DNA from: Acidimicrobiia bacterium | Lineage (GTDB): Bacteria; Actinomycetota; Acidimicrobiia; Spongiisociales; ZC4RG35 | Length of the DNA: 64,000 nucleotides | Reading direction: 5' to 3' | Assembly (NCBI GenBank): GCA_035249605.1 | Contig: DATFGI010000063.1 | Location: forward strand, 65,196 to 129,195 | Part shown: positions 4,556 through 63,300 of the stretch, in pieces | Layout of the letters: each line of letters starts with the position of its first letter | How positions within the stretch are numbered: position 1 is the stretch's first letter | The notes under the pieces: generated by a model | What the model was told of the DNA's origin: nothing | The model's database searches: none | What the model saw: only the letters and a program-made list of their open reading frames with translations | Made by a program: the position numbers and the translations under genes

Positions 4556-4639
4556 AGCCCCCAAACCCAGGCCCCCCAAACCAAGGCCCCCCAACCCAGG
4601 GTTCGCACCACCAATTCTGGTGGTACCAATCCTGGGTTA
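4556..4639. repeat. REP-like composite palindrome (core type 3) preceded by a triplicated left arm
   Basis: Element CAACCCAGGGTT-CGC-ACCACCA-ATTC-TGGTGGT-ACCAATCCTGGGTTA at 4592-4639. Upstream lie three ~15-nt units CCCCCAAACCCAGG / CCCCCCAAACCAAGG / CCCCCCAACCCAGGG. Confidence 0.75.
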
Positions 4640-4661
4640 CGTGTTCGGGCTCGGTCGGCCG

Positions 4662-15066: not shown

Positions 15067-15543
15067 TCAGCCCTGGTAGGGACGTACCGCCCTGACCTCG
15101 ACGGTCATGGTGCCGACCGGCGCCTCGTACTCCACCTGGTCGCCGACCGTGCTGCCCAGCAACGCGGCGCCAAGTGGGCTGGCGGGCGAGGCGAGAAGGA
15201 CCCCGGGCACCTTGTTCTCCTGGGGAGCGACGAAGTAATCCAGCTCGTCGCCATCGGAGTCGACCACCGTGACCACGCATCCGATCTCGACCCGGCCGGT
15301 GTCTTCCACTTCTCGGACCTCCGCGGTGTGGATCAGGTGCTCCAGCTTGCGGATCCGCGCCTCCATCAGCCCCTGGTCGTTCTTGGCCGCGTCATAGTCG
15401 GCGTTCTCTCGGAGATCGCCATGCGAGCGCGCCTCGGCGATGCGATCCTCGATCTCGCGGCGACCCTCGGTCCGCAGCTGGTCGAGCTCCTCTTCGAGCT
15501 TGGCCAGTGCCGCCGGGGTCAGGAATGTGGTCTCTGCGCTCAT
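15067..15543 (-). CDS. greA: Transcription elongation factor GreA
   Basis: 158 aa from ATG 15543. The LTPAALAKLEEELDQL...GDLRENADYDAAKNDQG coiled coil and C-terminal FKBP-like domain are typical GreA. Confidence 0.93.
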   Translation of the reverse strand: MSAETTFLTPAALAKLEEELDQLRTEGRREIEDRIAEARSHGDLRENADYDAAKNDQGLMEARIRKLEHLIHTAEVREVEDTGRVEIGCVVTVVDSDGDELDYFVAPQENKVPGVLLASPASPLGAALLGSTVGDQVEYEAPVGTMTVEVRAVRPYQG

Positions 15544-15605
15544 TTGGTTGTGGCGGACGGGCAAGGTTAAGCCTGACGCATGGGGTAGCGACAAAGCCGC
15601 ACACG

Positions 15606-15655
15606 CGAACCCAGGGTTCCCAGCGTCGCTCAGCGACGCTACGAACCCTGGGTTG
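15606..15655. repeat. REP-like composite palindrome, core type 1
   Basis: CGAACCCAGGGTTCCCAGCGTCGCTCAGCGACGCTACGAACCCTGGGTTG, identical over 50 bp to 27878-27927. Lies between the divergent greA and selD starts. Confidence 0.9.
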
Positions 15656-15715
15656 GGCGGTGGTCGTCGGCGGCGTCGGGCGGCGGCTGACCGTCGACCG
15701 GCTTAACTTCGCCGG

Positions 15716-16738
15716 GTGACAGAGATCCGTCTCACCAGATACAGCCACGGGGCCGGCTGAGCCTGCAAGCTCGGGGAAGCCGAGTTGGCCCAGGTCCTGG
15801 GTCCCGTGATCGACCATCCCGCCGCAACCCACCCCGATCTGAGTGTCGGTCTGGCCACCGGCGACGACGCCGGCGTCTATGCGCTGGGAGATGGTCGCGC
15901 CCTGGTGCAGACGGTGGACATCTTCACTCCGGTGGTGGACTCGCCGCGCGATTGGGGACGGATCGCGGCCGCCAACGCCCTCTCCGACATCTATGCAATG
16001 GGGGCGACACCACTCACCGCGCTTCAGTACCTGGCCTGGCCCCGCGACGAGCTGCCCTTCGCCGCGGCCAGCGAAGTGATCGCCGGGGGCATGGATGTGA
16101 TGGCCTCGGCGGGATGCACTGTGGTGGGCGGTCACTCCATCGATGGGCCCGAGCCGACTTACGGCTTTGCCGTCACCGGCACGGTCGACCTCGACAGAGT
16201 GGTGACCAACTCCGGGGCTCACCCCGGGGATGTGCTGGTGTTGACCAAGGCACTGGGGATGGGGGTCATCACCACGGCCATCAAGCGAGGGACCTGCCCA
16301 CCGGATCTCGCCGCGGAGGCGATCGATCTGATGGCGGCACTCAACGAAAGGGCCGGTGCGGCCCTCTGGGCGCACCGGGCATCGGCGGCGACCGACGTCA
16401 CGGGCTTCGGCCTGCTCGGGCATCTCCGCGAGATCTGTCGTGCTTCTCACGTGGGTGCTTGGGTCGAGCTGGCCTCGGTGCCGATCCTCGATGGGGTCGG
16501 CGACCTCCTCGCGATGGGAATGTGGGCTGGAGGGTCGGAGCGGAACCGCCGCTCCATCGAGCCCGACCTGGAAAGTGATGTCGACCCCGAGCTCATCCGT
16601 CCGCTACTCGACGCCCAGACCTCCGGTGGCCTCCTGGTCGCATTGCCCGAGGGCCAGGTCGGTGGCTATCTGGAAGCGGTCCCCGGGGCGACCCGCATCG
16701 GTGTCTGCACCGCGGACGAGGTCATCAGAGTGGGATAG
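15716..16738 (+). CDS. selD: Selenide, water dikinase (selenophosphate synthetase) SelD, selenocysteine-containing; TGA 15758-15760 read as Sec
   Basis: GTG 15716 is the first start after in-frame TAA 15704-15706. It gives VTEIRLTRYSHGAG-U-ACKLGEAELAQVLG..., in frame with the track ORF (15785-16738). This matches the SelD catalytic loop (E. coli IRLTQYSHGAGCGCK). The rest is a PurM-like AIR synthase fold (DDAGVY, DIFTPVVD, GGHSID). Confidence 0.85.
15765..15789 (+). promoter_or_regulatory. Candidate bacterial SECIS stem-loop downstream of the selD UGA
   Basis: GCAAGCTCGG-GGAAG-CCGAGTTGGC. Nine of 10 positions pair, including one G-U. The upper stem CTCGG/CCGAG begins about 10 nt after the UGA. 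The apical loop is G-rich. Confidence 0.5.
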
Positions 16739-16784: not shown

Positions 16785-17213
16785 TCATGGTGCGGAGTCA
16801 GGCTCCGGCTCGCCGCCCTCCGCGGCGATCCCCAGCCGAGCGATGTAGCGATTCCAGCCCTCGGTGTGGATTCCCACCTCTTCGGCAGGCAGGCCGCGGT
16901 GGGTCAGTCGAAGCCGCGTCCCCGAACCTTCGGGACGAAGTTCGATCTCGACGGTCGACGCACCGGGTGGAAGCTCGGGATGCTCTTCCCAACCCCAGGT
17001 GAAGACGACACTCCGGTTCGGTACCAGCTCCACGAAGCGCCCGCCGGCTGTCGCCCCGTTGGGCATGGCGATAGCGAGCGCGCCACCCGGCCGCGGCTCG
17101 AGTTCGACACCGACGCCCTGCCAGCGCGCCCACTTGGAAGGGTCGGTCAGGTACTCGTAGACCACCGAGGGTGGAGCCGCGATGACCCGCTCAACGACTA
17201 TCGGATCGCTCAT
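16785..17213 (-). CDS. SRPBCC/AHSA1-family protein
   Basis: 142 aa. VERVIAAPPSVVYEYLTDPSKWARW is typical of Aha1/START-like SRPBCC proteins. Overlaps the end of the upstream ArsR gene by 23 nt. Confidence 0.8.
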   Translation of the reverse strand: MSDPIVVERVIAAPPSVVYEYLTDPSKWARWQGVGVELEPRPGGALAIAMPNGATAGGRFVELVPNRSVVFTWGWEEHPELPPGASTVEIELRPEGSGTRLRLTHRGLPAEEVGIHTEGWNRYIARLGIAAEGGEPEPDSAP

Positions 17214-17517
17214 CCGAGGTGTCCTTCTCTATCGTCTCCGCCAACTGGTCGAGCGTGTCGGCCCACATCGCCTCCAGCACGAGACGCAGCGAGCCGAGCC
17301 GTTCCCGGTCGGCTCGATACCAGCGTCGATTGCCCTCTCGCCGGACGCTGACCAGACCCGCCTCGCGCAGAACGCCGAGATGTTGGGACACCGCACCAAA
17401 GGTCACGTCGAAGTGGGCAGCGATGTCACCAGCCGACATCTCGTCGGCCCAAACCAGGGCGAGGATCTCACGGCGTCGGGGCTCAGCGATCACCTGAAGG
17501 GCATCCACCACGAGCAT
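17191..17517 (-). CDS. ArsR/SmtB-family transcriptional regulator
   Basis: 108 aa. Winged-helix motif ALQVIAEPRRREILALV...SAGDIAAHFDVTFGAVSQHLGVLREAGLV. Confidence 0.88.
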   Translation of the reverse strand: MLVVDALQVIAEPRRREILALVWADEMSAGDIAAHFDVTFGAVSQHLGVLREAGLVSVRREGNRRWYRADRERLGSLRLVLEAMWADTLDQLAETIEKDTSDERSDSR

Positions 17518-17585
17518 TTTAGTTCATATTGAAATACGGGCGAGGCCGAGATATAGTCGGCGCTTAAATAGATCAAGGAGACCGA

Positions 17586-18020
17586 GTGATGGGCGATTAC
17601 GCGATCAAGGCACAATTGTCCGCACGGTGCCCTCAGGACGAGGTCAGACGATGGCTGGACAGCCCCGCCGGCATCGCCGGCTGGTGGTCCGACCGGGTCG
17701 AAGGGGCGGCAGCCTCGGTCGGGGACCGGTTCCGGGTGAGCTTTCCCACCACACCCGTAGTTTTCGAGCTCGTCGTGGAAGAGACCTCGGACCAGCTGAT
17801 CGACTGGCACGTGCCCGAGAGCCCGCCCTGGTGGAAGGGAACTCACATAGTGTTCGAGCTGTCGAGCGGCGACGGGGAGACCACGCTGCTATTCACCCAC
17901 CGGGGTTTTGACCCCGAAGATCCCATCATTCAGGTCATCACACCGGCGTGGGTCCGCTTCCTCGACAACCTGGTCGCGGTGGCCGAGTCTGGAAAGCCGC
18001 GCCCGGCCGTCGTCAACTGA
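17586..18020 (+). CDS. SRPBCC/AHSA1-family protein (second paralog, divergent from arsR)
   Basis: 144 aa with a START-like fold signature (WWSDRVEG...FRVSF...TLLFTHRGF). AAGGAG RBS at 17574-17579. Confidence 0.8.
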   Translation: MMGDYAIKAQLSARCPQDEVRRWLDSPAGIAGWWSDRVEGAAASVGDRFRVSFPTTPVVFELVVEETSDQLIDWHVPESPPWWKGTHIVFELSSGDGETTLLFTHRGFDPEDPIIQVITPAWVRFLDNLVAVAESGKPRPAVVN

Positions 18021-18098: not shown

Positions 18099-18521
18099 GT
18101 GACCCCCGACCAGCGTCTCCACGAGATCGCCGAGGCCCTGTCCATCCCCAGAGTGCAGCGTCACATCTTTCTGTGCGCCGACCAGACCAATCCCAAGTGT
18201 GCTCCGCGTGAGGAGACCAACGCGCTTTGGCGTCATCTCAAGACCCGCCTCAAGGAGGTGGGGGCTTCTTCGGCGCCGCCCAAGTGGCAGGGTGACATGG
18301 ACCACGATCCCGCTCCGGAGGTCCCGGGGACCGGGACGGTGCTGCGCACCAAGGCCGACTGTCTACGCATTTGTGAGCAGGGCTGCATCGCAGTGGTCTA
18401 CCCGGAGGGCACCTGGTACGCCGGTTTGGACATCGAGAAGTTGGACCGGATCATCGACGAGCACCTCATCGGCGGCACCCCGGTCGAAGACCTGGTCTTT
18501 GCTGTGGGCGACCTGAGGTGA
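18099..18521 (+). CDS. Thioredoxin-like [2Fe-2S] ferredoxin-domain protein
   Basis: 140 aa. HIFLCADQTNPKCAP ... CLRICEQGC cysteine pattern and VVYPEGTWY are typical of the (2Fe-2S) ferredoxin / DUF1271-like family. Confidence 0.72.
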   Translation: MTPDQRLHEIAEALSIPRVQRHIFLCADQTNPKCAPREETNALWRHLKTRLKEVGASSAPPKWQGDMDHDPAPEVPGTGTVLRTKADCLRICEQGCIAVVYPEGTWYAGLDIEKLDRIIDEHLIGGTPVEDLVFAVGDLR

Positions 18522-19425: not shown

Positions 19426-19534
19426 CGAACCCGGGGTTCCTGGCGCCGGATACGGCGCGACGAACCCGGGGTTGCGCGGCTCCCACGAACCCGGGGTTCC
19501 TGGCGCCGGATATGGCGTGACGAACCCGGGGTTG
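19426..19534. repeat. Two tandem REP-like composite palindromes, core type 2 (period 60 bp)
   Basis: CGAACCCGGGGTT-CCTG-GCGCCG-GATA-CGGCGC-GA-CGAACCCGGGGTTG at 19426-19474. It repeats at 19486-19534 with two C-to-T changes in the core stem. Confidence 0.9.
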
Positions 19535-23670: not shown

Positions 23671-23720
23671 GCAACCCAGGTTTCCCACCACCAAAAACCT
23701 GGGGTAGGAACCCTGGGTTG
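23671..23720. repeat. REP-like composite palindrome, decayed core type 3
   Basis: GCAACCCAGGTTT-CCCACCACCAAAAACCTGGGGTAG-GAACCCTGGGTTG. Lies between the CDF-like gene and ctaC. Confidence 0.7.
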
Positions 23721-27877: not shown

Positions 27878-27927
27878 CGAACCCAGGGTTCCCAGCGTCG
27901 CTCAGCGACGCTACGAACCCTGGGTTG
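27878..27927. repeat. REP-like composite palindrome, core type 1
   Basis: Identical to 15606-15655. Starts 5 nt after the ctaF stop. Confidence 0.9.
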
Positions 27928-45006: not shown

Positions 45007-45056
45007 GCAACCCAGGGTTCGCAGCGTCGCTCAGCGACGCTACGAACCCTGGGTTC
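45007..45056. repeat. REP-like composite palindrome, core type 1
   Basis: GCAACCCAGGGTTCGCAGCGTCGCTCAGCGACGCTACGAACCCTGGGTTC. Lies between convergent trmL and the M20 dipeptidase gene. Confidence 0.9.
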
Positions 45057-60217: not shown

Positions 60218-60267
60218 CGAACCCTGGGTTGCCAGCGTCGCTCAGCGACGCTGTGAACCCTGGGTTG
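60218..60267. repeat. REP-like composite palindrome, core type 1, inside the rpoB-rpoC spacer
   Basis: CGAACCCTGGGTTGCCAGCGTCGCTCAGCGACGCTGTGAACCCTGGGTTG. Starts 16 nt after the rpoB stop. Confidence 0.9.
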
Positions 60268-60346: not shown

Positions 60347-63300
60347 ATGGCGCAGCAGATATTCGATGAACTGAGAATCGGCCTCGCCTCCTCGGACCAG
60401 GTCCGCGCCTGGTCCTATGGAGAGGTGAAGAAGCCGGAGACGATCAACTACCGGACCCTTCGTCCCGAGAAGGAGGGTCTCTTCGACGAGCGCATCTTCG
60501 GTCCTCAGCGGGACTGGGAGTGCTACTGCGGCAAGTACAAGAGGATCCGGTACAAGGGGATCATCTGTGAGCGCTGCGGCGTCGAGGTCACCCGCTCCAA
60601 GGTGCGACGCGAGCGCATGGGCCATATCGAGCTGGCCGCGCCGGTCACCCATATCTGGTTCTTCAAGGGCGTCCCCAGCCGTCTCGGCTATCTCCTCGAC
60701 ATGTCCCCCAAGGAGCTGGAGAAGGTCATCTACTTCGCCAGCTACATCGTCACCTCGGTCAACGACGAGACCCGTCAGAAGGACCTGCCCGAGCTGGAGG
60801 CGGCGATGGGCGACGAGATCGAGGTCGTCCGTAACGAGTTCAAGGAATGGCACGAGGTCCGTCTCGAGGCGCTCGAGGACGAGTTGGAGCGCATGGAGGA
60901 GGGCGGGGCCAAGACCCAGGAGATCAACGCCCGCCGCAAGGAAGTCGAGAAGGAGATCAAAGAGCGCGAAGAGCGGACCAACCGCGAGATCGAGCTCATC
61001 GAGGAGGCCTTCTCAACGTTCCGCACCATGGGGCCCAAGCAGCTCATCGAGTCCGAACAGCTCTGGCGTGAGATCTACTTCCGCTATGCCGACTACTTCC
61101 AGGGCGGCATGGGCGCCGAGGCGGTGAAGACACTGCTGCTCGGCCTCGACCTCGACGCCGAGATGGAGTCGTTGGAGCAGAACCTCGACGGCTCCTCACA
61201 GCAACGCCGCCAGCGGGCCACGCAGCGGATGAAGGTGGTCAAGCCGTTCTGGGAGGGCCAGAACCGCCCCGAGGACATGATCCTGGAGACGGTCCCGGTC
61301 ATCCCTCCCGACCTCCGCCCCATGGTCCAGCTCGACGGCGGCCGTTTTGCCACCTCCGACCTGAACGACCTGTATCGACGGGTGATCAACCGCAACAACC
61401 GGCTCAAGAGGCTGCTGGACCTGGGTGCCCCCGAGATCATCGTCAACAACGAGAAGCGGATGCTCCAGGAGGCCGTCGACGCTCTGTTCGACAACGGCCG
61501 CCGCGGGCGCGCGGTCACCGGTCCGGGCAACCGGGCCCTGAAGTCGCTCTCCGACATGCTCAAGGGCAAGCAGGGCCGGTTCCGTCAGAATCTGCTCGGC
61601 AAGCGGGTCGATTACTCGGGCCGCTCTGTGATCGTGGTCGGGCCCCAGCTCAAGCTGCACCAGTGCGGTCTCCCCAAGATCATGGCCCTCGAGCTGTTCA
61701 AGCCCTTCGTGATGAAGCGGCTCGTCGACCTCGACCTGGCCCAGAACATCAAGGCGGCCAAGCGCATGGTGGAGCGCCAGCGTCCCCAGGTCTGGGACGT
61801 GCTCTCCGACGTGATCCAGGAGCACCCGGTGCTCCTGAACCGGGCGCCGACCCTGCACCGTCTCGGTATCCAGGCATTCGAGCCGGTGCTGGTGGAGGGC
61901 AAGGCCATCCAAATCCACCCGCTGGTCTGTGAGGCATTCAACGCCGACTTCGACGGGGACCAGATGGCCGTCCATCTCCCGCTGTCCGCCGAGGCCCAGG
62001 CCGAGGCGAGGGTGTTGATGCTGTCCAGCAACAACGTGCTGTCCCCGGCCTCGGGCCGCCCGATCGTGACCCCGTCCCAGGACATGGTCATCGGGGTCTA
62101 CTACCTCTCCGAGTTCGTGGAGGACGCTCTGGGCGCGGGTCGCCACTTCGCCGACGTCGACGAGGCTGTCATGGCCTACGAGATCGGCGACCTGTCCCTG
62201 CATGCCCCGATCAAGCTCCGTCTCGGCGAGCTCGCCGGTGATCCCGAGGTCCACACCGACCTCAAGACGACACTGAGGAAGCTGATCGCAGAAGAGCCGG
62301 ACGACCCCAAGGCCCTCACCGAGACCACCCTGGGCCGTGCCCTGTTGAACACGGTGTTCCCCGAGGACTTCCCGTATATCAACTCGACGGTGATCAAGAC
62401 AGACATCAAGCTGTTGATCGAGACCATCATCGAGCGTTATCCCCGCTCGGCAGTGGCCAACACCTTGGACGGGATCAAGGAGTTGGGTTTCACCTTCGCG
62501 ACCCGCGCCGGTCTCACCATCGCCCTCGACGACGTCCGCACCCCTGCCGACAAGGCGCAGATCCTGGCCGAGTACGAGGAGCGGGCGGAGAAGGTGCAGA
62601 ACCTGTTCGCCAAGGGTGTGGTCACCGACGATGAGCGTCGTCAGGAGCTGATCGAGATCTGGACAGAGGCCACCGAGAAGGTGACCGACGCCATGAAGGC
62701 CGGTCTGAAGACCGAGCAGTTCAACTCGCTCGACATGATGGTGGGCTCGGGTGCCCGGGGGAACATGATGCAGGTGCGTCAGATCGCCGGCATGCGCGGG
62801 CTGGTGGCCAACCCCAAGGGTGACATCATCCCCCGGCCGATCATCTCCAACTTCCGTGAGGGACTGTCGGTGCTCGAGTACTTCATCTCGACCCATGGTG
62901 CCCGAAAGGGCCTGGCCGACACGGCCTTGCGTACCGCCGACTCCGGCTACCTGACCCGTCGACTCGTCGACGTCTCCCAGGAGATGATCGTTCTCGAGGA
63001 CGACTGTGGGACCGATCGTGGCATCGTGATCAAGGTGGTCGACGAGCGTTCGGGCGGCAAGATCCGAAACCTGCGCTCCCGCATCTACGGGCGTTTCCTG
63101 GCCGATGACGTCAAGGAGGGCCGGAGCCTGGTCGCCACCGACGACGACAACAAGCTTCGAGCCGGGACCGTGATCGGCACCAAGGAGCTGCACGCCATCG
63201 AGGAGGCGGATATCGAGTCGATTCGGGTCCGCTCACCGCTGACCTGTGACACCAGGTCCGGGGTGTGCCAGACCTGTTATGGCCTGTCCCTCGCCACCGG

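What the first reader, a model, noticed from the sequence alone, without database searches (positions are those of the whole stretch)
15716..15789. selD is itself a selenoprotein: in-frame UGA at the catalytic position plus a SECIS-like hairpin; the ORF track truncates the gene
The track starts SelD at TTG 15785. Reading from GTG 15716, the first start after in-frame TAA 15704-15706, gives V-T-E-I-R-L-T-R-Y-S-H-G-A-G-[TGA 15758-15760]-A-C-K-L-G-E-A-E-L, in the same frame. This reproduces the glycine-rich catalytic N-terminal loop of selenophosphate synthetase. E. coli has IRLTQYSHGAGCGCK, and its first Cys is the residue replaced by selenocysteine in Sec-type SelDs. A stem-loop follows: 15765-15774 pairs with 15780-15789, with 9 of 10 positions paired, one of them G-U. 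Its loop is GGAAG, and the upper stem starts about 10 nt after the UGA, which is the geometry expected for a bacterial SECIS. This implies a complete Sec-insertion system (selA, selB, tRNA-Sec) elsewhere in the genome, with autoregulatory dependence of selD on selenium. No other sel gene is in this window.
Basis: partly seen in the sequence, partly recalled or inferred. Interest (0 to 1): 0.7.

Follow-up and report, generated by a model that had tools for sequence, protein, structure and literature searches.

The report
Selenocysteine-type selD gene, miscalled as truncated
This is an ordinary example of a well-known case: the selenophosphate synthetase gene selD itself encodes selenocysteine at its catalytic residue through an in-frame UGA, which gene callers read as a stop and so cut off the start of the gene.

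Summary
Reading from GTG 15716 gives VTEIRLTRYSHGAG-UGA-ACKLG. This matches the SelD N-terminal catalytic loop, and the UGA (15758-15760) aligns with Cys17 of E. coli SelD. The full gene is 15716-16738, and the TTG 15785 start is a gene-calling artefact. The same UGA occurs in syntenic orthologs (83-87% identical) and in 55 distinct selD genes from about six phyla. TGA is otherwise this genome's normal stop codon.

Its loop sequence is not conserved, and it lies 14 nt from the UGA, which is too close for the published bacterial SECIS model. The adjacent hairpin (hp2, 15787-15803, loop GUC, apex CAGGUCCUG) meets every criterion of that model. hp2 shows covariation, is absent from Cys-type genes and resembles the E. 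coli fdhF SECIS apex. hp2 is therefore the likely SelB-binding site, and hp1 is a preceding stem. Mariotti et al. 2015 already described this stem1-then-stem2 layout for Clostridiales SelD.

No selA, selB or tRNA-Sec lies in the window, and the rest of the genome could not be examined. Sec-type SelD is the second most widespread prokaryotic selenoprotein family, so novelty is low.

The parts
15716..16738 (+). Full-length selD coding sequence (340 codons plus stop), with UGA = Sec at codon 15
   Evidence: Translation. TIGR00476 selD at 377 bits from profile position 1. E. coli SelD 3U0O matched at E = 3.6e-77 over residues 3-314. The GTG start is conserved in 6 of 6 close relatives, and conservation begins exactly there.
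15758..15760 (+). In-frame UGA, predicted selenocysteine codon at the catalytic position (equivalent to E. coli Cys17)
   Evidence: The same codon is TGA in 55 distinct orthologs and TGC/TGT in 75 others. TGA is the ordinary stop for 27 of 33 confident ORFs in the window.
Probably a spacer or positioning stem ('stem1'), not the SelB-binding apex.
   Evidence: -10.4 kcal/mol. More stable in Sec-type than in Cys-type genes (-9.8 against -5.6 kcal/mol, p = 1e-4). 81% of cells paired, with compensatory changes at 4 of 7 pairs. Meets all bSECIS criteria in only 2 of 55 genes, and its spacing in the window is 14 nt. RNAalifold did not recover it.
15787..15803 (+). hp2: 7-bp hairpin GGCCCAG-GUC-CUGGGUC, loop 15794-15796. 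Best candidate for the SelB-binding SECIS apex ('stem2').
   Evidence: Meets all published bSECIS criteria in the window (loop GUC, 7 bp, 33 nt from the UGA, -10.2 kcal/mol), in 42 of 55 Sec-type genes and in 3 of 75 Cys-type genes. 89.6% paired, 6 of 7 pairs with double changes, 0 of 500 shuffles as good. Cys-type control 49% paired. Recovered independently by RNAalifold on close relatives. Its apex CAGGUCCUG resembles E. coli fdhF GCAGGUCUGC.
15785..15787 (+). TTG used as the start by the ORF track. This is an artefact: it is the internal Leu codon of ...AELAQVL...
   Evidence: Homologs in the public protein set are truncated at assorted downstream starts (43 of the top 120). The two checked at DNA level (P0003, P0004) carry the TGA upstream.

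Best explanation
The gene at 15716-16738 is a selenocysteine-type selenophosphate synthetase (SelD). Translation starts at GTG 15716. Codon 15 (UGA, 15758-15760) is decoded as selenocysteine, giving the catalytic loop SHGAG-U-ACK.

Inferred: with the UGA in the ribosomal A site, hp1 sits just outside the mRNA entry channel. By folding on itself it brings hp2, which is 33 nt away in sequence, to roughly the distance seen in E. coli fdhF, and it may also pause the ribosome.

Shown here: the sequence features, membership of the SelD family, conservation of the UGA, and the Sec-specific conservation and covariation of both hairpins. Inferred: actual Sec insertion, SelB binding to hp2, the role of hp1, and the presence of selA, selB and selC elsewhere in the genome. 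Because SelD makes the selenium donor needed for its own Sec residue, its synthesis should depend on selenium supply. That is a hypothesis from the literature and was not tested.
For: - Family and catalytic position.
- Orthology: the greA-selD neighbourhood is syntenic in L162-L166.
- The GTG start, the 14 upstream codons and the TGA are conserved in close relatives, with non-conserved DNA just upstream.
- TGA occurs at this codon in 55 distinct selD genes from Actinomycetota, Gemmatimonadota, Chloroflexota, Marinimicrobia/FCB, Latescibacterota and Dormibacterota.
- TGA is the normal stop in this genome (27 of 33 confident ORFs).
- Both hairpins are more stable in Sec-type than in Cys-type genes, and an upstream control segment shows no difference.
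- Covariation: Sec-type 85.5% paired with 0 of 500 shuffles as good; Cys-type 56.3% with 179 of 500.
- hp2 meets the published bSECIS criteria in 42 of 55 Sec-type and 3 of 75 Cys-type genes (criteria from PMC13188914).
- With the mRNA held single-stranded up to +10, hp1 and hp2 form with probability 1.00 and 0.97 in the window, and with medians 0.93 and 0.96 across the 55 genes.
- The hp2 apex resembles the fdhF SECIS apex.
- Literature: Sec-SelD is a major selenoprotein family (PMC1794560, PMC13188914). A stem1-then-stem2 bSECIS was described for Clostridiales SelD (PMC4561486, Supplement S6). Complete Acidimicrobiia (Actinomarina) genomes carry selA, selB and selC, with Sec-type SelD in about half (bioRxiv 10.64898/2026.04.03.716425).
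Against: - No selA, selB or tRNA-Sec lies in the 64-kb window, and the rest of the genome was not available.
- No other selenoprotein gene was found in the window.
- There is no Rfam hit, although Rfam covers bacterial SECIS elements poorly.
- RNAalifold on all 55 sequences recovered neither hairpin.
- On the close-relative subset RNAalifold recovered hp2, but it replaced hp1 with a competing helix that includes the UGA.
- hp2's loop lies 33 nt from the UGA. This is near the upper limit of the model (37 nt) and much further than in E. coli fdhF (18 nt).
- Part of hp2's sequence conservation could come from the conserved peptide AQVL.
- The Sec-type genes are related to one another, so the shuffle controls overstate significance.
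Confidence: 0.85

Rival explanations
1. One reading: hp1 (15765-15789, loop GGAAG) is itself the SelB-binding SECIS, and hp2 is incidental or has another role.
For: hp1 is stable (-10.4 kcal/mol), Sec-specific and shows compensatory changes. In the window its loop begins with GG. Its loop position (+18 to +22) is close to that of E. coli fdhF (+22 to +25).
Against: The spacing is 14 nt in the window and 13-15 nt in most orthologs, below the model's 16-37. hp1 meets all bSECIS criteria in only 2 of 55 genes, with G in the first two loop positions in only 24 of 55. Among close relatives, which should share the same SelB specificity, the loop changes freely: GGAAG, AGUUG, CGUCG, UCCUG, CCCCG. The 5' arm shifts register in the GACC-type sequences. 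hp2 has a nearly invariant G-U loop (54 of 55 genes).
Confidence: 0.12
2. Pseudogene or sequencing error: a single TGC-to-TGA change has inactivated selD, or is an assembly artefact.
For: TGC to TGA is a single substitution. Cys-type orthologs exist at 82% identity (P0002/L164). No Sec machinery lies in the window.
Against: The TGA is present in independent assemblies of syntenic orthologs and in 55 distinct genes. The downstream 325 codons are intact, with coding-type GC3 of 0.81. A Sec-specific RNA structure follows the TGA.
Confidence: 0.02
3. The gene really starts at TTG 15785 (or later) and encodes an N-terminally shortened SelD-like protein.
For: This is what the mechanical ORF track and many database entries show.
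Against: Such a protein would lack the Gly-rich loop that carries the catalytic Sec/Cys and Lys. The family model aligns from profile position 1 upstream of the TGA. The upstream 14 codons and the GTG start are conserved, whereas the intergenic DNA is not. Database 'starts' scatter over 295-323 aa, as expected for artefacts.
Confidence: 0.01

Closest known systems
Selenocysteine-containing SelD / SPS2 (for example Haemophilus influenzae, Aquifex aeolicus, Clostridia); described as the second most widespread prokaryotic selenoprotein family (PMC13188914; PMC1794560)
   Same: UGA at the catalytic residue of the N-terminal Gly-rich loop. A coding-region stem-loop element lies directly downstream. 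Sec and Cys forms interchange among close relatives. The gene is routinely truncated by gene callers.
   Different: Nothing essential. This copy comes from an uncultured Acidimicrobiia-like lineage and is not next to other sel genes.
Clostridiales SelD bSECIS as modelled by Mariotti et al. 2015 (PMC4561486, Supplement S6, Fig. SM6.1A)
   Same: Two stems follow the UGA. Stem2 lies downstream of stem1 rather than nested inside it, and stem2 alone fits the bSECIS consensus.
   Different: Different phyla. I could read the text description but not the figure, so base-level similarity was not compared.
E. coli fdhF SECIS
   Same: An apical G-U-containing loop on a G+C-rich stem: fdhF GCAGGUCUGC against window CCCAGGUCCUGGG. 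It lies in the coding region downstream of the UGA.
   Different: In fdhF the loop starts 18 nt after the UGA, on one continuous bulged hairpin. Here the matching loop starts 33 nt after the UGA, and a separate 7-bp hairpin fills the gap.
Sec-type SelD in Ca. Actinomarina (class Acidimicrobiia), bioRxiv 10.64898/2026.04.03.716425
   Same: Same class. Sec-type SelD occurs in about half of the genomes, alongside selA, selB and selC. My set independently contains an Actinomarina locus with the TGA (L027).
   Different: Different order and very different genome composition. The preprint did not describe the SECIS.
Cys-type SelD (E. coli SelD, PDB 3U0O)
   Same: Same fold family. It aligns over residues 3-314, with Cys17 at the position of the UGA.
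   Different: It has Cys instead of Sec and no SECIS. Cys-type genes lack hp1 and hp2, apart from a few with remnants.

Membership tests
SelD (selenide, water dikinase; TIGR00476) | Whole-protein score above the curated cut-off of the equivalog model | tested here: met
   377.3 bits against a cut-off of 125, with profile positions 1-308 of 311 matched. NF002098 scores 335.7 against a cut-off of 299.
SelD (selenide, water dikinase; TIGR00476) | N-terminal Gly-rich loop carrying the catalytic Cys/Sec and Lys (SHGAG-[C/U]-x-C-K) | tested here: met
   YSHGAG-UGA-ACK aligns to E. coli YSHGAGCGCK in 3U0O.
SelD (selenide, water dikinase; TIGR00476) | ATP-dependent synthesis of selenophosphate | not testable with these tools
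   Requires an enzyme assay.
Bacterial selenoprotein gene | In-frame UGA aligned with Cys in homologs and conserved as UGA in orthologs | tested here: met
   55 distinct TGA-type and 75 distinct Cys-type genes at the same codon. Close syntenic orthologs keep the TGA.
Bacterial selenoprotein gene | UGA is otherwise a stop codon in the organism (no code reassignment) | tested here: met
   27 of 33 confident ORFs in the window end in TGA.
Bacterial selenoprotein gene | selA, selB and tRNA-Sec present in the same genome | not testable with these tools
   None lie in the window. In the fetched loci, sel genes sit next to selD only in Cys-type actinomycetes.
Bacterial selenoprotein gene | Selenium actually incorporated at the UGA | not testable with these tools
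   Needs 75Se labelling or mass spectrometry.
   Loop of 5 nt, stem of 7 bp, -10.4 kcal/mol.
   14 nt in the window. Only 15 of 55 orthologs fall in the range.
   Met in the window (GGAAG), but in only 24 of 55 orthologs, and not in the close relatives L081 and L082.
bSECIS consensus, applied to hp2 (15787-15803) | All five criteria: loop 3-9 nt, stem 4-16 bp, G in the first two loop positions, spacing 16-37 nt, MFE of -7.5 kcal/mol or lower | tested here: met
   Loop GUC, 7 bp, 33 nt, -10.2 kcal/mol. All criteria are met in 42 of 55 Sec-type and 3 of 75 Cys-type genes.
bSECIS consensus, applied to hp2 (15787-15803) | Binding by SelB | not testable with these tools
   Requires a binding or reporter assay.
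Rfam SECIS families | Covariance-model hit | tested here: not met
   No hit at gathering thresholds in the window, and none at E up to 10 in 15700-15860. Rfam represents bacterial SECIS elements poorly, as also noted in the preprint read.

The most novel reading that the evidence does not exclude
The tandem hp1-hp2 arrangement, conserved with covariation in UGA-type selD genes of about six phyla, could be a distinct class of bacterial SECIS. In this reading a self-folding spacer hairpin sits at the ribosome's mRNA entrance while the UGA is in the A site. It pauses the ribosome and brings a SelB-binding hairpin, 33 nt away in sequence, to an E. coli-like working distance. Only a one-sentence description for Clostridiales SelD exists so far.
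Probability: 0.35. Interest if true: 0.35.

Novelty: new member of a known kind. Interest (0 to 1): 0.15.

Why it matters
The main value is for annotation. The gene should be called 15716-16738 with UGA translated as Sec, not 15785-16738. The same error affects many public entries: 43 of the 120 closest database homologs start downstream of the catalytic loop.

The corrected call flags this organism as a likely selenocysteine user, so other UGA-containing genes elsewhere in its genome are probably miscalled as well.

The comparative set also gives a clean Sec-versus-Cys contrast for a two-hairpin selD SECIS. That contrast could help train bacterial SECIS predictors, but it does not change what is known about the system.

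Tried and rejected
- Rfam at gathering thresholds over the whole window, and at E up to 10 around the site, gave no SECIS family and only two chance-level hits on the opposite strand.
- ARAGORN found no tRNA in the window.
- NCBIfam scans of the ten largest other ORFs, and tblastn with E. coli SelA and SelB, found no sel genes in the window.
- I scanned for other TGA-interrupted coding regions and for other TGAs followed by an hp2-like hairpin. The candidates at 62781(-), 22755(-), 18018(+) and 44274(-) are off-frame or antisense artefacts, or simply adjacent genes.
- I looked for tRNA-Sec, selA and selB next to selD in 160 related loci. They occur only in Cys-type actinomycete, Ignavibacteriaceae and Pirellulales loci, and never beside an Acidimicrobiia Sec-type selD. 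Same-genome evidence was therefore not obtained.
- The window's own genome was not among the reference-genome hits (best identity 62%).
- RNAalifold on all 55 Sec-type sequences returned only a weak helix (-2.5 kcal/mol) that includes the UGA. I treat this helix, hp0, as irrelevant to decoding, because it cannot exist while the UGA is inside the ribosome. All its pairs are invariant coding positions, so it remains untested.
- I considered UGA reassignment and rejected it on stop-codon usage.

Full report
**Observation.** The sequence is as described. An in-frame TAA lies at 15704-15706. The first start codon after it is GTG 15716. TGA is at 15758-15760, TTG at 15785, and the stop TAG at 16736-16738. 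The mechanical ORF list begins the ORF at TTG 15785 (317 aa). Reading from GTG 15716 gives VTEIRLTRYSHGAG*ACKLGEAELAQVLG.

With Cys placed at the TGA, the 340-aa protein scores 377 bits on NCBIfam TIGR00476 (selD, cut-off 125). The alignment starts at profile position 1 at residue 5, so the residues upstream of the TGA are part of the family. Against solved structures, E. coli SelD (3U0O) aligns SIRLTQYSHGAGCGCKIS to EIRLTRYSHGAG[TGA]ACKLG, which puts the TGA at Cys17.

Its solid core is 7 bp, 15768-15774 with 15780-15786, at -10.4 kcal/mol. On its own it is not remarkable in 66% G+C DNA, because the local segment folds with z = -0.37 against shuffles.

**Surroundings.** selD is transcribed divergently from greA (15067-15543, minus strand), with mgtE beyond greA. 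Two AHSA1/SRPBCC genes, a 140-aa ferredoxin-like gene and an alpha/beta hydrolase follow selD. The window holds no tRNA and no Rfam family at gathering thresholds. It holds no selA or selB, judged by NCBIfam scans of the large ORFs and by tblastn with the E. coli proteins. TGA ends 27 of 33 confident ORFs, so UGA is not reassigned. Scans for other TGA-interrupted coding regions, and for TGAs followed by a SECIS-like hairpin, found only selD. The other candidates were antisense or off-frame artefacts.

**Relatives.** The closest proteins come from Acidimicrobiia MAGs and metagenomes. They fall into a full-length Cys type (GAGCACKL; P0002 is 82% identical) and a large group that starts at assorted positions downstream of the catalytic loop (43 of the top 120).

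DNA for P0003 (87% identical) and P0004 (83%) shows the same gene order: aminotransferase IV, hypothetical, mgtE, greA, selD, 140-aa gene, hydrolase. These are therefore orthologs. Aligning the 5' regions shows that conservation begins abruptly at the GTG start. The 14 upstream codons are almost identical, and the TGA is present in five of six sequences. The sixth, Cys-type L164, has TGC.

Scans of reference genomes and metagenomes gave 160 selD loci. Of these, 55 distinct sequences have TGA at this codon and 75 have TGC or TGT. By their record titles, the TGA-type loci come from Actinomycetota, Gemmatimonadota, Chloroflexota, Marinimicrobia/FCB, Latescibacterota and Dormibacterota.

**The RNA element.** I number positions from the U of the UGA as position 1. 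Two adjacent hairpins follow the UGA. hp2 spans positions 30-36 and 40-46, which is window 15787-15793 and 15797-15803, with loop GUC.

- **Folding of single sequences.** hp1 plus hp2 is the minimum-energy fold for the window and for most Sec-type sequences.
- **Sec against Cys stability.** Both hairpins are more stable in Sec-type than in Cys-type genes. hp1 averages -9.8 against -5.6 kcal/mol (p = 1e-4). hp2 averages -10.3 against -4.5 kcal/mol (p = 6e-7). An upstream control segment shows no such difference.
- **hp2 base pairing.** All six core hp2 pairs form in 43 of 55 Sec-type genes and in 2 of 75 Cys-type genes.
- **Covariation, Sec type.** On the Sec-type alignment 85.5% of cells are paired, and 0 of 500 shuffles reach this. 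Sliding the partners drops pairing to 28-42%. hp2 has compensatory changes at 6 of 7 pairs; for example one pair reads GC:31, CG:11, UA:4, UG:3. hp1 has them at 4 of 7 pairs.
- **Covariation, Cys type.** The same structure on Cys-type genes is 56.3% paired, no better than shuffles (179 of 500).
- **Remnants.** A few Cys-type genes (L093, L128, L144, L164) keep remnants of the structure. Such remnants are known for recent Sec-to-Cys conversions (PMC1794560).

**Which hairpin is the SECIS?** The published consensus model is quoted in PMC13188914. It requires:
- a loop of 3-9 nt;
- a stem of 4-16 bp;
- a G in the first two loop positions, usually G[G/U];
- 16-37 nt between the UGA and the loop;
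- an MFE of -7.5 kcal/mol or lower.

hp2 meets all of these in the window (GUC, 7 bp, 33 nt, -10.2 kcal/mol). It also meets them in 42 of 55 Sec-type and 3 of 75 Cys-type genes. hp1 meets them all in only 2 of 55. Its spacing is 14 nt in the window and 13-15 nt in most genes, and its loop G is not conserved.

Among the closest relatives the hp1 loop varies freely (GGAAG, AGUUG, CGUCG, UCCUG, CCCCG) while its stem is constant. The hp2 loop stays GUC or GUU. The hp2 apex (CCCAGGUCCUGGG) resembles the apex of the E. coli fdhF SECIS (GCAGGUCUGC), which I read from the E. coli genome. I therefore assign SelB binding to hp2, with confidence of about 0.7 for this sub-claim, and treat hp1 as a preceding stem.

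Mariotti et al. 2015 describe this layout for Clostridiales Sec-SelD. [quoted passage not shown] The arrangement is therefore a known variant.

**Caveats on the structure.** RNAalifold on all 55 diverse sequences recovered neither hairpin. It gave only a weak helix (-2.5 kcal/mol) that includes the UGA. On an objectively chosen subset (SelD at least 55% identical to the window's, 16 sequences) it recovered hp2 with covariation. For the 5' part it preferred a competing helix, hp0, which pairs UGAGC with GCUCG. All hp0 pairs are invariant coding positions, so covariation says nothing about it. In the window hp0 is weaker than hp1 (-8.4 against -10.4 kcal/mol).

When the mRNA up to +10 is held single-stranded, as it would be with the UGA in the A site, hp1 and hp2 form with probability 1.00 and 0.97 in the window. 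The medians across the 55 genes are 0.93 and 0.96. hp2 is robust in every analysis, while hp1 is probable rather than certain.

**Mechanism.** Shown here: SelD family membership, the UGA at the catalytic codon, its conservation across orthologs, and the Sec-specific conserved hairpins. Inferred from established knowledge of bacterial Sec decoding: SelB carrying Sec-tRNA(Sec) binds the hp2 apex and delivers Sec when the UGA reaches the A site.

My own inference concerns hp1. It begins 7 nt after the UGA, so it would sit at the mRNA entrance of a ribosome positioned on the UGA. By folding, it would shorten the effective distance to hp2 to something like the fdhF geometry, and it may pause the ribosome.

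The idea that a Sec-dependent SelD makes its own synthesis depend on selenium is an old hypothesis. The preprint read credits the Sec/Cys polymorphism of SelD to Guimaraes et al. 1996. Nothing here tests that hypothesis.

**Sec machinery.** tRNA-Sec, selA and selB lie next to selD in several fetched loci, but only in Cys-type actinomycetes and a few other lineages, and never beside an Acidimicrobiia Sec-type selD.

Indirect support comes from a 2026 preprint. It reports selA, selB and selC in all 84 complete Ca. Actinomarina genomes (class Acidimicrobiia), with Sec-type SelD in about half. My set independently shows the TGA in an Actinomarina locus (L027).

**Novelty.** Sec-type SelD has been known since the 1990s. 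It is described as the second most widespread prokaryotic selenoprotein family (PMC13188914), and Sec/Cys switching in SelD is documented (PMC1794560). Truncation by gene callers is the expected artefact. This is a new member of a known kind. The only mildly new element is the breadth of conservation of the two-hairpin layout.

Noticed in passing
window 15596-15665; also 4592-4640, 19427-19474, 19487-19534, 23672-23720, 27879-27927, 45008-45056, 60219-60267: A family of nested palindromic repeats of about 50 nt lies in intergenic regions, much like REP elements. The outer arms are GAACCCNGGGTTC ... GAACCCNGGGTT(G/C), 36 nt apart, around an inner hairpin (AGCGTCGC-TCA-GCGACGCT in four copies). 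There are 14 half-site matches against 0.3 expected by shuffles. The copy upstream of selD folds at -46.8 kcal/mol (z = -6.4). It is absent from the same intergenic region in orthologs L162 and L164, so it is a variable insertion and not part of selD recoding.
   Followed up: partly
window 16785-18020 and 18099-18521; L162-L166: In close relatives selD is followed after about 10 nt by a 140-aa gene and then an alpha/beta hydrolase. In the window two AHSA1/SRPBCC genes are inserted between selD and that gene. The 140-aa protein has no Pfam hit and only a sub-threshold match to thioredoxin-like 2Fe-2S ferredoxins (NF041612, E = 2e-11, 44 bits against a cut-off of 150). Whether it works with SelD is unknown.
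   Followed up: partly
L164 6421-6486; L093 2187-2252; L128 10022-10087; L144 6853-6918: These Cys-type selD genes keep a nearly intact or partly decayed copy of hp1 and hp2 after the TGC. This looks like a recent Sec-to-Cys conversion. L164 is 82% identical to the window's SelD and syntenic with it.
   Followed up: partly
protein hits P0001-P0120: 43 of the 120 closest SelD homologs in the public protein set start downstream of the catalytic loop (295-323 aa), including one NCBI entry (P0120). The two checked at DNA level have the in-frame TGA, which points to systematic mis-calling of Sec-type selD.
   Followed up: partly
L026, L030, L032, L038, L045, L046, L057, L061, L063, L069, L072 (actinomycetes) and L059 (Ignavibacteriaceae): tRNA-Sec lies within a few kb of selD in these loci, and in most of them selA and selB are there as well. 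All loci in this group where the catalytic motif was found have Cys-type selD.
   Followed up: no
L049, L060, L074 (Dormibacterota-like), positions +4 to +37 after the TGA: These three Sec-type genes lack hp2. They fold instead into one longer hairpin built on the hp1 position, with a lower stem GCCUGC/GCAGGU. The selD SECIS layout is therefore not uniform across phyla.
   Followed up: no
window 15757-15774: An alternative helix, hp0, pairs the UGA-containing segment (C)UGAGC with GCUCG(G), the 5' arm of hp1. It scores -8.4 kcal/mol, and RNAalifold prefers it on close relatives. All its pairs are invariant coding positions, so it is untestable by covariation. It matches the 'additional stem that includes the Sec TGA' mentioned by Mariotti et al. 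2015.
   Followed up: partly
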